Counted from the stretch's first letter, positions 1-45,237 are shown. The stretch: 64,000 nucleotides of DNA from Escherichia coli (GCF_003334305.1 NZ_QOWS01000007.1), one strand, 5' to 3'. Program-made: numbers and translations. The notes: generated by a model from the sequence alone, not told the origin.

Positions 1-82
1 GCAGTTCGTTGGCTTTAGCCAGCACCTCTTTTACATCCTTAAACTGATATACATTGCCGAACAATGTGGTCTTTAGTTTCAT
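1..82 (-). CDS. eutB: Ethanolamine ammonia-lyase large subunit EutB, N-terminal 27 codons only (gene runs off the window start)
   Basis: Reverse complement of 1..82 translates MKLKTTLFGNVYQFKDVKEVLAKANEL, matching the EutB N-terminus; start codon 12 bp downstream of the eutA stop. Confidence 0.8.
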   Translation of the reverse strand, partial: MKLKTTLFGNVYQFKDVKEVLAKANEL

Positions 83-93
83 AAGTCGTTCCC

Positions 94-31222: not shown

Positions 31223-31368
31223 AGATACCTCAACAATATATTCATTATAGAAATGATCGTAGGTGGTTCAGAGGAAGATTACCACAGGAAAGCGGGATGA
31301 AATGGCGGAGGAATTAAGGCTTCATGCCACGTTATATAATTTACGAATGTTAGAAGTAAAAGAGAATG

Positions 31369-31767
31369 TTAGCTCCAATCTTCTAGTCTGATTCCCGCCA
31401 CTCGCTCAAACTCTCGGGTATTGTTGGTAACCACAATCAAACCGCGACTGCGAGCATGTCCCGCTATCATCTGGTCAAAAGGTCCAACAGGCCTTCCCTG
31501 CCGGGCAAGCTCGGCCCTGATTTGCCCGGTATGCGTCGCAGCAGCACTATCATAATCAAGCACTTCCAAACGAGATACGAAACCTTCAATCACCGCCAAA
31601 TTGCGTTCTGGCATCTGACTTTTTTCTGCCCCATAGATAAGCTCCATCAATGTTACAGAACTTATACACATCCGGCCAGAATTCAGGTTAAACCGCTCTC
31701 TGACATGTACTGGTTTATTCTTAATAGTGAAAATACAGATATTGGTATCCAGCATGAATTTCAGCAT
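31369..31767 (-). CDS. vapC: PIN-domain ribonuclease toxin, VapC family (closest recalled relatives Shigella MvpA / Salmonella VapC, which cleave initiator tRNA-fMet)
   Basis: 132-aa ORF beginning MLKFMLDTNICIF with conserved PIN acidic residues; near-identical in my recollection to enterobacterial VapC/MvpA; 1-nt ATGA overlap with the upstream antitoxin ORF. Confidence 0.85.
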   Translation of the reverse strand: MLKFMLDTNICIFTIKNKPVHVRERFNLNSGRMCISSVTLMELIYGAEKSQMPERNLAVIEGFVSRLEVLDYDSAAATHTGQIRAELARQGRPVGPFDQMIAGHARSRGLIVVTNNTREFERVAGIRLEDWS

Positions 31768-31994
31768 CAGAATGATTCCCTTTCCTGCATTGCGGGTTGA
31801 TCACGGATATCCATAAAATCCGCACTCACATTTTCGCCATCAAACCAACTGTCCCAGGACTCACCGGCGGGAGTGATGATTCTTGTACGACCAATCGCAA
31901 TAATTTCTACTTTCTTAACATCCTCTGGCAGAGCGACCGCTTTCGGTAATCTGACGGCCTGACTGCGATTACTTAAAAATACAGTAGTTTCCAT
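31767..31994 (-). CDS. vapB: VapB-type antitoxin (AbrB/SpoVT/MazE swapped-hairpin DNA-binding domain)
   Basis: Track ORF is 88 aa; start chosen at METTVFLSNRSQAVRLPKAV (75 aa), preceded by a G-rich SD; stop overlaps the vapC start. Confidence 0.8.
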   Translation of the reverse strand: METTVFLSNRSQAVRLPKAVALPEDVKKVEIIAIGRTRIITPAGESWDSWFDGENVSADFMDIRDQPAMQERESF

Positions 31995-32060
31995 AGCCCC
32001 CCCTTTTTTGGGATATACGTCATGTATATACATATTGGCCTGTTATTACTTTCCTGTCAA
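31995..32060 (-). promoter_or_regulatory. Putative vapBC promoter/operator
   Basis: On the minus strand ttgaca (-35-like) precedes a 12-bp perfect palindrome atgtatatacat and tatac direct repeats directly upstream of the vapB start. Confidence 0.4.
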
Positions 32061-32148
32061 AGGGAGATAATGCGAAGTATTGTAGCGGGGGTATCGAAGA
32101 CATTTAGCCGGAGTACCCTCCGGCTAAATAAACAAGCAACCAGAAAAA

Positions 32149-32913: not shown

Positions 32914-32970
<57 letters not shown>

Positions 32971-40054: not shown

Positions 40055-41285
40055 ATGGAAAATCTTGCTCTGACGACGTTAATGCTGCCTTTTATCGGCG
40101 CACTGGTCGTTTCGTTTTCGCCACAACGTCGGGCCGCCGAATGGGGGTTTTGTTCGCCGCACTGACCACGCTGTGCATGTTGTCGCTGATCTCCGCGTTT
40201 TATCAGGCCGATAAAGTTGCCGTCACGTTGACGTTGGTCAACGTGGGGGATGTGGCATTGTTTGGCCTGGTCATTGATCGCGTGAGTACGCTGATTCTGT
40301 TTGTGGTGGTGTTTCTCGGTTTGCTGGTCACGATCTACTCCACGGGTTATCTGACGGATAAAAATCGCGAACACCCGCATAACGGCACGAATCGTTATTA
40401 CGCATTTTTGCTGGTGTTTATCGGCGCGATGGCGGGACTGGTACTCTCCTCGACGCTGCTCGGTCAGTTGTTGTTTTTTGAAATTACGGGCGGCTGCTCC
40501 TGGGCGTTGATCAGTTATTACCAGAGCGATAAAGCGCAGCGTTCAGCACTAAAAGCGTTGCTTATCACCCATATCGGTTCGTTGGGGTTGTATCTTGCCG
40601 CCGCCACGCTGTTTTTGCAGACCGGAACGTTTGTGCTTAGCGCGATGAGCGAGTTACATGGCGACGCACGTTATCTGGTTTATGGCGGCATCCTGTTTGC
40701 CGCGTGGGGGAAATCGGCCCAGCTACCGATGCAAGCGTGGCTACCGGACGCAATGGAAGCGCCAACACCGATCAGCGCCTATCTCCACGCCGCATCGATG
40801 GTGAAAGTGGGCGGCTGGCACTGGAGGGCAGCATCGCCTACATCGTCAACCACGCGTTCGCTAAAAGCCTGTTTTTCCTTGTAGCAGGTGCGCTGAGTTA
40901 CAGCTGCGGCACGCGCTTATTGCCGCGTCTGCGTGGCGTATTGCACACCCTGCCGTTGCCAGGCGTGGGTTTCTGCGTGGCAGCGCTGGCGATTACCGGT
41001 GTGCCGCCGTTCAACGGCTTCTTCAGTAAATTCCCGCTGTTTGCCGCCGGTTTTGCGTTGTCAGTGGAGTACTGGATCCTGCTGCCCGCCATGATTCTGC
41101 TGATGATTGAATCGGTCGCCAGTTTCGCCTGGTTTATTCGCTGGTTTGGTCGCGTTGTGCCTGGCAAACCGAGCGAGGCCGTCGCCGATGCCGCACCGCT
41201 GCCAGGGTCAATGCGCCTGGTGTTGATTGTACTGATTGTGATGTCGCTGATTTCCAGCGTAATCGCCGCGACCTGGTTGCAGTAA
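40055..41285 (+). pseudogene. hyfD: hyfD, hydrogenase-4 NuoL/M/N-like membrane subunit, disrupted by frameshift plus internal deletion
   Basis: Reading frame opens at ATG 40055 (MENLALTTLMLPFIGALVVSFSPQRRAAEW), hits a stop after 36 codons, resumes in another frame (track ORF 40141..40884) and again in a third frame (40704..41285); the conserved D-x-KRLLA-x-S motif present in hyfB and hyfF is absent; total span 1231 nt against about 1440 nt recalled for intact hyfD. Confidence 0.75.
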
Positions 41286-43532: not shown

Positions 43533-45237
43533 TTCATCGTCAAATCGTGGCGAAGCGATTCTCGCCGCCCTGAAAACGCAGTTCCCCGGCGCGGTGCTGG
43601 ATGAAGAGCGACAAACGCCTGAACAGGTCACCATTACGGTGAAAATCAATCTGCTGCCTGACGTTGTACATTATCTTTATTATCAACATGATGGCTGGCT
43701 TCCAGTCCTGTTTGGCAACGACGAGCGGACACTTAACGGTCATTACGCGGTTTATTATGCCCTTTCAATGGAAGGGGCCGAAAAATGCTGGATCGTGGTG
43801 AAGGCACTGGTCGATGCCGACAGTCGGGAGTTTCCGTCAGTCACACCGCGCGTCCCTGCCGCGGTCTGGGGCGAGCGAGAAATTCGCGATATGTACGGGC
43901 TGATTCCGGTTGGCCTGCCGGATCAGCGTCGCCTGGTGTTGCCCGATGACTGGCCGGAAGATATGCATCCGCTGCGCAAAGATGCGATGGATTATCGACT
44001 GCGCCCTGAACCGACGACAGATTCCGAAACGTATGCGTTTATCAATGAGGGCAACAGCGATGCGCGGGAGATCCCTGTCGGCCCGCTGCATATCACCTCC
44101 GATGAACCGGGTCACTTCCGCTTGTTTGTGGATGGCGAGCAAATTGTCGATGCTGATTACCGCCTGTTTTATGTCCATCGCGGCATGGAGAAACTGGCAG
44201 AAACGCGGATGGGCTACAACGAAGTGACCTTCTTATCGGACCGCGTGTGTGGGATTTGCGGTTTTGCCCACAGTGTGGCCTATACCAATTCGGTTGAAAA
44301 TGCACTGGGGATTGAGGTGCCGCAACGAGCACATACTATTCGCTCGATTCTGCTGGAAGTCGAACGGCTACACAGTCATTTGCTTAACCTTGGCCTCTCC
44401 TGCCATTTCGTTGGTTTTGATACCGGCTTTATGCAATTTTTCCGCGTGCGGGAAAAGTCGATGACGATGGCGGAATTGCTGATCGGGTCGCGTAAAACCT
44501 ACGGTCTGAATCTGATTGGTGGTGTTCGCCGCGATATTCTCAAAGAGCAACGTCTGCAAACGCTGAAACTGGTGCGCGAGATGCGCGCCGACGTGTCGGA
44601 GCTGGTAGAGATGCTGCTTGCCACGCCGAATATGGAACAACGCACTCAGGGCATTGGCATTCTCGACCGACAAATCGCCCGTGATTATAGCCCTGTAGGG
44701 CCGCTGATCCGCGGCAGTGGTTTTGCCCGTGATTTGCGCTTTGATCACCCCTACGCCGACTACGGCAATATTCCAAAAACACTGTTTACCTTTACCGGCG
44801 GCGATGTTTTCTCCCGCGTGATGGTCCGTGTCAAAGAGACGTTTGATTCGCTGGCAATGCTGGAATTTGCCCTCGACAACATGCCGGATACCCCACTGCT
44901 GACCGAAGGCTTTAGCTATAAACCTCACGCATTCGCGCTGGGCTTTGTTGAAGCGCCACGCGGTGAAGACGTGCACTGGAGCATGCTCGGTGATAACCAA
45001 AAATTGTTCCGCTGGCGCTGCCGTGCCGCCACCTACGCCAACTGGCCGGTGTTGCGTTACATGCTGCGCGGCAATACCGTTTCTGACGCACCGCTGATTA
45101 TCGGTAGCCTTGATCCCTGCTACTCCTGTACCGACCGTGTGACGCTGGTAGATGTGCGCAAGCGCCAGTCAAAAACCGTGCCGTATAAAGAGATCGAACG
45201 CTACGGCATTGATCGTAACCGTTCGCCGCTGAAGTAA
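43522..45237 (+). CDS. hyfG: Hydrogenase-4 large [NiFe] subunit HyfG (NuoC/D-like)
   Basis: Track ORF 43477..45237; start tentatively placed at GTG 43522 ([10 protein letters not shown]) with ggaga SD 6 nt upstream; CxxC Ni-binding motifs ([19 protein letters not shown]); exact start uncertain. Confidence 0.85.

What the first reader, a model, noticed from the sequence alone, without database searches (positions are those of the whole stretch)
31369..32060. VapBC-type toxin-antitoxin module inserted between ypfJ and purC
A PIN-domain toxin ORF (132 aa) and an AbrB/SpoVT-type antitoxin ORF (75 aa) overlap by one nucleotide (ATGA) on the minus strand, the classic type II TA architecture. The toxin looks near-identical, as far as I can recall, to Shigella MvpA / Salmonella VapC, which cleave initiator tRNA-fMet. 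The rest of the window is gene-for-gene syntenic with K-12, where I recall no gene between ypfJ and purC, so this is the clearest accessory element here. It sits beside tmcA (which acetylates elongator tRNA-Met) and purC, an intriguing neighbourhood for a tRNA-fMet nuclease.
Basis: partly seen in the sequence, partly recalled or inferred. Interest (0 to 1): 0.6.

Follow-up and report, generated by a model that had tools for sequence, protein, structure and literature searches.

The report
Chromosomal VapBC toxin-antitoxin pair, already annotated
This is an intact, ordinary VapB-VapC toxin-antitoxin gene pair, whose toxin is expected to cut initiator tRNA, sitting between ypfJ and purC in about 30% of complete E. 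coli genomes and already annotated as such in public records.

Summary
On the minus strand, vapB (31767-31994, 75 aa) precedes vapC (31369-31767, 132 aa) with a 1-nt overlap. The overlap reads TGATG, not ATGA.

VapC is a PIN-domain protein, 91-93% identical to the VapC/MvpA proteins of Shigella pINV, F-type and Salmonella plasmids. D7, E42, D98 and E119 are all present. VapB keeps the AbrB-type N-terminus and every residue known to plug the VapC active site.

K-12 has only a 167-bp ypfJ-purC spacer. Here an 826-bp segment replaces 67 bp of it. The segment is present in 1617 of 5426 complete E. coli genomes and absent in 3806. RefSeq already names it "tRNA(fMet)-specific endonuclease VapC / antitoxin VapB".

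It is not a recent plasmid integration. DNA identity to the plasmid copies is only about 75%, and synonymous sites are saturated while dN is 0.06-0.11.

The same module occupies the same site in two divergent Escherichia genomes. There its dS is 3-5 times lower than that of ypfJ and bamC, which suggests spread by homologous recombination.

The proposed link to tmcA is not supported: ypfJ lies between them, and 78 homologous loci in other genera have none of these neighbours.

Verdict: correct call, known system, low novelty.

The parts
31369..31767 (-). vapC, the PIN-domain toxin (132 aa), predicted to be a tRNA(fMet)-specific endonuclease
   Evidence: ORF found. Pfam PIN at 1.9e-21. Matches PDB 6SD6, 3TND and 9H6A at about 1e-79. 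NCBIfam NF010285 scores 291 bits against a cut-off of 143. D7, E42, D98 and E119 are present. RefSeq protein WP_000911329.1 at this position carries the name vapC.
31767..31994 (-). vapB, the AbrB/MazE-type antitoxin (75 aa). Its stop codon overlaps the vapC start by 1 nt (TGATG).
   Evidence: Pfam MazE_antitoxin at 8e-5. NCBIfam TA_anti_VapB scores 113.8 bits against a cut-off of 60. Matches PDB VapB chains at 3e-40. W47, W50, F51, F60, R64 and Q66 are conserved (compared with PMC3384007). RefSeq protein is WP_000450524.1.
32011..32060 (-). Putative vapBC promoter and operator. It holds the -35 hexamer TTGACA (32060-32055), a 17-nt spacer, a weak -10 CAATAT (32037-32032), the palindrome ATGTATATACAT (32033-32022) and a second GTATATCC repeat (32020-32011).
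   Evidence: The sequence is shown and the palindrome is repeat I15. The region aligns column for column with the promoter regions of pINV and IncF plasmid vapBC, including the invariant TTGACA and the ATATAC/ATATCC motifs. Operators overlapping -10 and -35 were shown experimentally only for the Salmonella homologue (PMC3378870). The simple promoter scan did not call this site because the -10 is weak. The assignment is inferred.
31995..32010 (-). Leader with an A6 G7 tract that supplies the Shine-Dalgarno-like G run 3 nt before the vapB ATG. The A-run length varies among alleles.
   Evidence: Sequence. The tract is A5, A6 or A8 in three E. coli alleles, and reads AAAGAAGG(A/G)GGGG in two divergent Escherichia genomes.
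32102..32129 (-). Perfect 12-bp stem with a 4-nt loop just 3' of purC, specific to the vapBC-bearing haplotype. It is probably the 3' end hairpin of purC mRNA.
   Evidence: Inverted repeat I6. RNA fold of -24.1 kcal/mol, z = -4.7. There is no U-tract, so it is not a canonical intrinsic terminator. The K-12 haplotype has a different, non-homologous 11-bp hairpin at the same place.
31315..32140 (.). The whole haplotype-specific segment (826 bp) that replaces 67 bp of the K-12 ypfJ-purC spacer
   Evidence: Shown by pairwise and multiple alignments and by blastn of the window against K-12. GC is 43-47% here against 52-57% in the flanks. No IS element, integrase, tRNA gene or terminal repeats are present.
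31345..31372 (-). vapC 3' end with a 9-bp direct repeat, CTAACATTC twice with starts 19 bp apart. One copy overlaps the vapC stop codon.
   Evidence: Repeat family D7, conserved in all five vapBC-bearing Escherichia sequences. Its significance is unknown. My estimate is that a repeat this close arises by chance about 8% of the time.

Best explanation
A functional type II toxin-antitoxin operon of the enteric VapBC (MvpAT) family, carried at a fixed chromosomal site as a presence/absence polymorphism.

Proposed mechanism:
- vapB and vapC are transcribed from their own promoter. VapB is translated first and VapC is translationally coupled through the TGATG overlap.
- VapB's C-terminal tail (W47, W50, F51, F60, R64, Q66) wraps the VapC PIN domain and occupies the metal sites of the D7/E42/D98/E119 active centre.
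- The VapB-VapC complex, presumably a hetero-octamer, binds through the AbrB-type N-termini of VapB to the GTATATAC/GTATATCC repeats that overlap the promoter, and so represses its own operon.
- When VapB is degraded (Lon in the homologues), free VapC cleaves initiator tRNA(fMet) in the anticodon stem-loop. This blocks translation initiation and stops growth reversibly.

Shown here: gene structure, domains, catalytic and inhibitory residues, conservation of the promoter region, purifying selection, and distribution.

Inferred from 91-93% identical characterised homologues: the tRNA(fMet) target, Lon lability, the octamer and autoregulation.

The module is old and distinct from the plasmid copies. 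It appears to move between Escherichia lineages by homologous recombination of its flanks, not by any mobile-element machinery.
For: Domain and family matches:
- VapC hits Pfam PIN at 1.9e-21 and VapB hits MazE/AbrB at 8e-5.
- VapC matches solved tRNA(fMet)-specific VapC structures 6SD6, 3TND, 9H6A and 5ECD at 1e-78 to 1e-80 over its full length. VapB matches at 3e-40.
- NCBIfam NF010285 scores 291 bits (cut-off 143) and TA_anti_VapB scores 114 bits (cut-off 60).

Functional residues:
- D7, E42, D98 and E119 in VapC and W47, W50, F51, F60, R64 and Q66 in VapB are all conserved. Their roles are described in PMC3384007.
- The Lon cleavage sites after F51 and F60 reported in PMC11796401 are also conserved.

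Promoter: the -35 hexamer and the repeat motifs align with the plasmid vapBC promoters.

Purifying selection:
- Against the plasmid copies, dN is 0.06-0.11 while synonymous sites are saturated.
- Against two divergent Escherichia genomes, dN/dS is 0-0.08.
- Both common E. coli alleles encode intact proteins, with an identical VapB, WP_000450524.1.

Architecture: vapB lies immediately upstream of vapC in all 80 related loci.

Distribution: the module is in 1617 of 5426 genomes, always chromosomal and single-copy, and is annotated vapB/vapC by PGAP.
Against: No experiment on this particular allele was found in the searchable literature.

It differs from the characterised VapCs at 9-12 positions, among them V20, H21, S30, E67, S74, A123, I125 and L127. 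Target specificity is therefore assumed, not shown.

The -10 hexamer is weak (CAATAT), and only one of the two plasmid-type operator regions is clearly kept. The -35-proximal repeat is degenerate.

What physiological role a chromosomal copy plays remains open.
Confidence: 0.9

Rival explanations
1. The chromosomal module works mainly as an anti-addiction or cross-talk partner for the very similar vapBC carried by IncF and pINV plasmids. Chromosomal VapB would neutralise plasmid VapC, or co-repress the plasmid operon, and so change how strongly those plasmids are stabilised in hosts that carry it. This reading is compatible with the best explanation at the molecular level.
For: VapB is 84-87% and VapC 91-93% identical to the plasmid proteins.

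All VapB residues that contact the VapC groove and active site are identical.

The operator-like repeats are similar.

Plasmid-type vapBC is common in E. coli: 770 plasmid places among 5426 genomes and 823 E. coli plasmids in PLSDB. Both types often share a cell. I derive at most about 354 genomes with both from the counts.
Against: Co-occurrence is not depleted. The plasmid type is found in up to about 22% of genomes with the chromosomal type, against about 11% of genomes without it (derived). That is the opposite of what simple anti-addiction predicts, although phylogeny and ecology confound the comparison and multi-copy genomes blur the count.

There are no cross-neutralisation data.
Confidence: 0.2
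2. The module is a recent integration of plasmid DNA (F or pINV derived) into the chromosome.
For: Closely related proteins are found mostly on conjugative IncF plasmids (1164 of 1283 plasmid hits are on conjugative plasmids). vapBC on an integrated F plasmid is known from K-12 derivatives (PMC11796401).
Against: DNA identity to every plasmid copy is only 71-75%, and synonymous sites are saturated.

There are no tra, rep or IS sequences in the 826-bp segment.

The site is identical in 1617 genomes and in two divergent Escherichia genomes.
Confidence: 0.01
3. The module is a decaying, non-functional relic.
For: Many chromosomal TA loci are degenerate. The -10 element is weak, and one operator repeat is degenerate relative to the plasmids.
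Against: Both ORFs are intact in all five Escherichia alleles examined, with no frameshift in either gene.

The catalytic and inhibitory residues are kept.

dN/dS is 0.08 or lower.

PGAP annotates the pair as intact genes across the listed genomes.
Confidence: 0.04
4. The position next to tmcA and purC reflects a functional coupling between the toxin and tRNA(Met) modification or purine metabolism.
For: Only the physical proximity. tmcA lies two genes downstream on the same strand.
Against: ypfJ intervenes, and tmcA is still next to ypfJ in K-12, which lacks vapBC.

Homologues sit between traI and traD on IncF plasmids, or by an IS3 element on pINV.

78 loci in other genera have none of these neighbours.

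From established knowledge, TmcA acts on elongator tRNA(Met) whereas VapC targets initiator tRNA(fMet).
Confidence: 0.02

Closest known systems
VapBC (MvpAT) of the Shigella flexneri and S. sonnei virulence plasmid pINV (PDB 3TND, 6SD6, 5ECD)
   Same: The gene order, lengths (75 and 132 aa) and 1-nt TGATG overlap are the same. The PIN active site and the VapB inhibitory residues are the same. The -35 hexamer and the ATATAC/ATATCC repeats in the promoter are shared. VapC is 91% and VapB 84% identical.
   Different: It is chromosomal at a fixed core-genome site, not plasmid-borne, so it cannot act in plasmid post-segregational killing. DNA identity is only about 74% and synonymous sites are saturated. 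It has R32, as S. sonnei VapC does, and the wild-type Q12 in VapB. The -35-proximal operator repeat is degenerate.
VapBC of F and IncF plasmids, located between traI and traD (PDB 9H6A-D; PMC11796401)
   Same: VapC is 92-93% and VapB 85-87% identical, with the same compact module of about 700 bp.
   Different: The genomic context differs. No tolerance or plasmid-stability phenotype is known for the chromosomal copy.
Salmonella enterica LT2 VapBC (Winther and Gerdes, PMC3378870)
   Same: This homologue was used to establish Lon-dependent VapB decay, the two operators over -10 and -35, and conditional cooperativity. The architecture is the same, and the PDB Salmonella-type chain 6IFC matches at 1e-72.
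   Different: Regulation has not been tested for this allele, and only the -10-proximal operator is clearly conserved.
More distant VapBC modules: Leptospira VapBC, Haemophilus VapBC-1 (6NKL) and Rickettsia VapBC (3ZVK)
   Same: All pair a PIN toxin with an AbrB-type antitoxin. NCBIfam VapCLeptosp scores 172 bits against a cut-off of 140.
   Different: The sequence identity is much lower. They serve only as family-level relatives.

Membership tests
VapBC type II toxin-antitoxin, enteric tRNA(fMet)-specific subgroup (MvpAT / NF010285) | The toxin is a single PIN domain with four conserved acidic residues | tested here: met
   Pfam PF01850 at 1.9e-21 over residues 5-125. D7, E42, D98 and E119 are present. 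It is 91-93% identical to solved VapC structures.
VapBC type II toxin-antitoxin, enteric tRNA(fMet)-specific subgroup (MvpAT / NF010285) | The antitoxin has an AbrB/SpoVT (MazE-like) N-terminal DNA-binding domain and a C-terminal tail that binds the toxin | tested here: met
   Pfam PF04014 at 8e-5. NF040493 scores 113.8 bits against a cut-off of 60. W47, W50, F51, F60, R64 and Q66 are conserved.
VapBC type II toxin-antitoxin, enteric tRNA(fMet)-specific subgroup (MvpAT / NF010285) | Bicistronic operon, antitoxin first, with overlapping or abutting genes | tested here: met
   vapB 31767-31994 and vapC 31369-31767 share one base. The same arrangement is seen in 80 of 80 related loci.
VapBC type II toxin-antitoxin, enteric tRNA(fMet)-specific subgroup (MvpAT / NF010285) | The whole-protein score exceeds the curated family threshold | tested here: met
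   NF010285 scores 291.3 bits against a cut-off of 143. The Leptospira equivalog NF047863 scores 172.6 against 140.
VapBC type II toxin-antitoxin, enteric tRNA(fMet)-specific subgroup (MvpAT / NF010285) | Autorepression through operators that overlap the promoter | tested here: inconclusive
   The palindrome ATGTATATACAT and the GTATATCC repeat over and just downstream of the -10 align with the plasmid promoter motifs. The -35-side repeat is degenerate. No binding data exist.
VapBC type II toxin-antitoxin, enteric tRNA(fMet)-specific subgroup (MvpAT / NF010285) | [quoted passage not shown] | not testable with these tools
   Inferred from 91-93% identity to the enzymes named tRNA(fMet)-specific endonuclease in the PDB and from the literature (PMC5175351 abstract).
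VapBC type II toxin-antitoxin, enteric tRNA(fMet)-specific subgroup (MvpAT / NF010285) | The toxin arrests growth, the cognate antitoxin neutralises it, and the antitoxin is protease-labile | not testable with these tools
   Indirect only. There is strong purifying selection on both genes, and the F51 and F60 Lon sites are conserved.

The most novel reading that the evidence does not exclude
The chromosomal VapB cross-neutralises, or co-regulates with, the 91-93% identical VapC encoded by IncF and pINV-type plasmids. On this reading, the roughly 30% of E. coli that carry the ypfJ-purC module differ systematically from the rest in how firmly vapBC-stabilised resistance and virulence plasmids are held, and in vapBC-linked antibiotic tolerance.

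A related point is that the module spreads between Escherichia lineages by flank-mediated homologous recombination. Its dS of 0.08-0.14 compares with 0.36-0.53 for ypfJ and bamC.
Probability: 0.3. Interest if true: 0.45.

Novelty: already known. Interest (0 to 1): 0.15.

Why it matters
As a gene call it adds nothing. RefSeq already annotates this exact protein pair in more than 1600 complete E. coli genomes, and the family is among the best-characterised toxin-antitoxin systems, both structurally and biochemically.

Its modest value is as a clean natural polymorphism. About 30% of E. coli, including O104:H4 and O111 strains, carry a chromosomal tRNA(fMet) nuclease module that K-12 lacks. Many of those strains also carry the plasmid version. 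That makes cross-talk between chromosomal and plasmid VapBC, with effects on plasmid stability and antibiotic tolerance, directly testable.

Tried and rejected
1. The simple sigma-70 and terminator scan found no promoter upstream of vapB. The promoter was instead assigned by alignment to the plasmid promoters, and it remains inferred.

2. I looked for vapBC remnants in the K-12 spacer. The pairwise aligner scattered K-12 bases across vapBC. In the multiple alignment they collapse into one unrelated 67-bp block with its own hairpin. I read this as no remnant, and which state is ancestral stays unresolved.

3. I looked for mobile-element signatures. No IS, integrase, tRNA or terminal inverted repeats turned up. 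The only repeat of note is a 9-bp direct repeat at the vapC stop.

4. Rfam found nothing in the segment.

5. Literature searches for this locus (vapBC with ypfJ, "chromosomal vapBC" with E. coli, vapBC with purC, and phylogroup B1 with vapC) returned nothing specific. The purC hits were the word "purchased".

6. Mapping by phylogroup could not be done quantitatively, because the tool lists at most 60 of the matching genomes. I note only that listed carriers include O104:H4, O111:NM, O78:H51 and ECOR29, while listed non-carriers include K-12, an ST1193 strain and an O18 strain.

7. Structure prediction was not run. At 91-93% identity to several crystal structures it would add nothing.

8. NG86 gave pS above 0.75 against the plasmids. 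I treat this as saturation, not as a measurable distance.

Full report
**Observation.** The six-frame ORF list shows a 132-aa ORF at 31369..31767 on the minus strand, and upstream of it on the same strand an ORF ending at 31767. The longest version of the upstream ORF starts at the ATG at 32033 (88 aa). The start that matches every homologue and the RefSeq annotation is the ATG at 31994, which gives 75 aa beginning METTVFLS. The two genes share one base. The finding therefore spans the operon plus its likely promoter.

**Identity of the toxin.** It matches Pfam PIN (PF01850) at 1.9e-21 over residues 5-125. It aligns end to end with solved chains named "tRNA(fMet)-specific endonuclease VapC": 6SD6 and 3TND from Shigella pINV, 9H6A from the F plasmid, and 5ECD, at E-values of 1e-78 to 1e-80. 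By tblastn it is 91-93% identical to four plasmid VapCs. NCBIfam NF010285 (tRNA(fMet)-specific endonuclease VapC) scores 291 bits against a curated cut-off of 143. D7, E42, D98 and E119 are all present.

**Identity of the antitoxin.** It matches Pfam MazE_antitoxin (AbrB-like) at 8e-5, NCBIfam TA_anti_VapB at 114 bits against a cut-off of 60, and solved VapB chains at 3e-40. The residues that the Shigella crystal structure shows inserting into the VapC hydrophobic groove (W47, W50, F51, F60) and into the active site (R64, Q66) are all conserved (PMC3384007). The two reported Lon cleavage positions, after F51 and F60, are conserved too (PMC11796401).

**Promoter region.**
- Upstream of vapB the sequence reads TTGACA (32060-32055), then 17 nt, then CAATAT (32037-32032).
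- A perfect palindrome, ATGTATATACAT (32033-32022), follows, and then ACGTATATCC (32020-32011).
- This stretch aligns with the promoter regions of pINV and IncF vapBC. TTGACA and the ATATAC and ATATCC motifs are invariant in the alignment. The repeat on the -35 side is degenerate here.
- For the Salmonella homologue, two inverted-repeat operators overlapping -10 and -35, Lon-dependent VapB decay and conditional cooperativity were shown experimentally (PMC3378870).
- For this allele regulation is inferred only, and the generic promoter scan did not call the site.

**Accessory status and boundaries.**
- K-12 MG1655 has ypfJ and purC adjacent with a 167-bp spacer.
- blastn of the whole window against K-12 2563000-2632000 shows colinearity from eutA to pdeF at 98-99% identity. 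The break is at window 31315-32140 (826 bp), against K-12 2596830-2596896 (67 bp).
- Multiple alignment fixes the left junction right after the purC stop plus TTTTTCT, and the right junction at ...AT|TCCTCCGCC, 92 bp upstream of ypfJ.
- The two haplotypes carry unrelated sequence between these points. Each has its own stable hairpin 3' of purC.
- Divergence from K-12 is raised just next to the junctions, at 91-97% against 98-100% further out. This fits two old haplotypes better than a fresh insertion.
- The segment is lower in GC than its flanks, at 43-47% against 52-57%.
- It has no IS, integrase, tRNA or terminal repeats.

**Distribution in E. coli.** Among 5426 complete genomes, 1617 hold at least 80% of the vapBC segment, essentially always once and on the chromosome. 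Another 3806 hold the full K-12-type spacer. PGAP annotates the pair as vapB and vapC in the listed records. Two main alleles exist, at about 99-100% and about 98.4% identity to the window. They encode the identical VapB (WP_000450524.1) and two intact VapC proteins, WP_000911329.1 and WP_000911330.1. Listed carriers include O104:H4, O111:NM, O78:H51 and ECOR29. Listed non-carriers include K-12 strains, an ST1193 strain and an O18 strain. I could not tabulate phylogroups.

**Relation to the plasmid copies.**
- blastn against 72,556 plasmids finds 1283 with a homologue, of which 1164 are conjugative. They come mostly from Escherichia, Salmonella and Shigella.
- All are only 60-80% identical in DNA. 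The three exceptions at 95% or more include at least one chromosome-sized record (4.8 Mb) filed among the plasmids.
- On IncF plasmids the module sits between traI and traD. On pINV it lies next to an IS3 transposase.
- Nei-Gojobori counts give dN of 0.06-0.07 for vapC and 0.09-0.11 for vapB, with synonymous sites saturated.
- The chromosomal module is therefore an old, separately evolving lineage under strong purifying selection. It is not an integrated plasmid fragment and not a relic.

**Other genomes.**
- A scan of one genome per species found 365 relatives, of which the best 80 were kept. In all 80, vapB lies immediately upstream of vapC.
- Only two have the bamC-purC-vapBC-ypfJ-tmcA context. 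Both are labelled E. coli, but their flanks are about 10% diverged in DNA and TmcA is 91% identical.
- In those two genomes, vapB and vapC have dS of 0.08-0.14 and purC 0.08-0.15. The genes on either side have dS of 0.38-0.45 (ypfJ) and 0.36-0.53 (bamC).
- The module, perhaps together with purC, is therefore younger than the genomes it sits in. This points to exchange between Escherichia lineages by homologous recombination through the conserved flanks. Codon bias may explain the low dS of purC, but it is unlikely to explain that of vapBC.
- None of the other 78 loci has TmcA, YpfJ, PurC or BamC within 3 kb.

**Co-residence with plasmid vapBC.**
- A sensitive blastn search with the coding region finds 2051 genomes with any vapBC of this subgroup. 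There are 1619 records at 95% identity or more (the chromosomal type) and 2405 places in all, 770 of them on plasmids.
- From these counts, about 432 genomes have only the plasmid type and at most about 354 have both.
- The plasmid type thus occurs in up to about 22% of genomes with the chromosomal module, against about 11% of genomes without it. Independence would predict about 230 genomes with both.
- The figures are rough, because multi-copy genomes and phylogeny are uncorrected. Even so, there is no sign of mutual exclusion.
- The contact residues and operator motifs are shared, so cross-neutralisation or cross-regulation is plausible and untested. This is the only angle with some novelty.

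**Literature.** Searches of the open library found no paper dealing with this chromosomal locus. The family itself is thoroughly described.

**Verdict.** The element is an intact member of a well-known family and is already annotated in public genomes. Novelty is low.

Noticed in passing
window 40141-41285 (around 40812): Relative to K-12, the window lacks 205 bp of hyfD (K-12 2605571-2605775). This leaves two overlapping ORFs (40141..40884 and 40704..41285), so the hydrogenase-4 subunit D gene appears frameshifted in this strain.
   Followed up: partly
window 44687-44734: hyfG carries a 48-bp in-frame segment that K-12 lacks, bounded by a GCCCGTGATT direct repeat. K-12 looks like the deleted form.
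   Followed up: partly
window 1-93: The start of eutB lies directly next to eutA. This strain therefore lacks the CPZ-55 cryptic prophage that separates them in K-12.
   Followed up: partly
window 32915-32959 (-): There is a sub-threshold Rfam hit to naRNA4 (30.9 bits against a gathering score of 59.5, E = 0.006) in the purC-bamC spacer. It probably reflects a REP-type repeat.
   Followed up: no
window 32003-32010 and the matching positions in L087 and L088: The A-run between the operator-like repeats and the G-rich Shine-Dalgarno sequence of vapB varies in length among E. coli alleles (A5, A6, A8). It is interrupted (AAAGAA) in two divergent Escherichia genomes. An effect on vapB translation or promoter spacing is possible.
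   Followed up: partly
window 31345-31353 and 31364-31372: A 9-bp direct repeat, CTAACATTC (minus strand), occurs twice with starts 19 bp apart. One copy overlaps the vapC stop codon. It is conserved in all vapBC-bearing Escherichia sequences examined, and its meaning is unknown.
   Followed up: partly
window 32102-32129 and L001 4849-4875: The vapBC-bearing and the empty haplotypes each have a strong but unrelated hairpin immediately 3' of purC (z = -4.7 and -3.4). Neither has a U-tract.
   Followed up: partly
NZ_CP026085.1 (hit H10): A 4.83-Mb genome labelled 'DH5alpha' carries the vapBC segment at 100% identity, although K-12 lacks it. The strain label is probably wrong.
   Followed up: no
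L004, L005, L006 (IncF plasmids), positions about 1420-2134: On IncF plasmids the homologous vapBC is a compact cassette of about 715 bp wedged between the convergent 3' ends of traI and traD. It is another example of this module occupying a short intergenic gap without any mobile-element features.
   Followed up: partly
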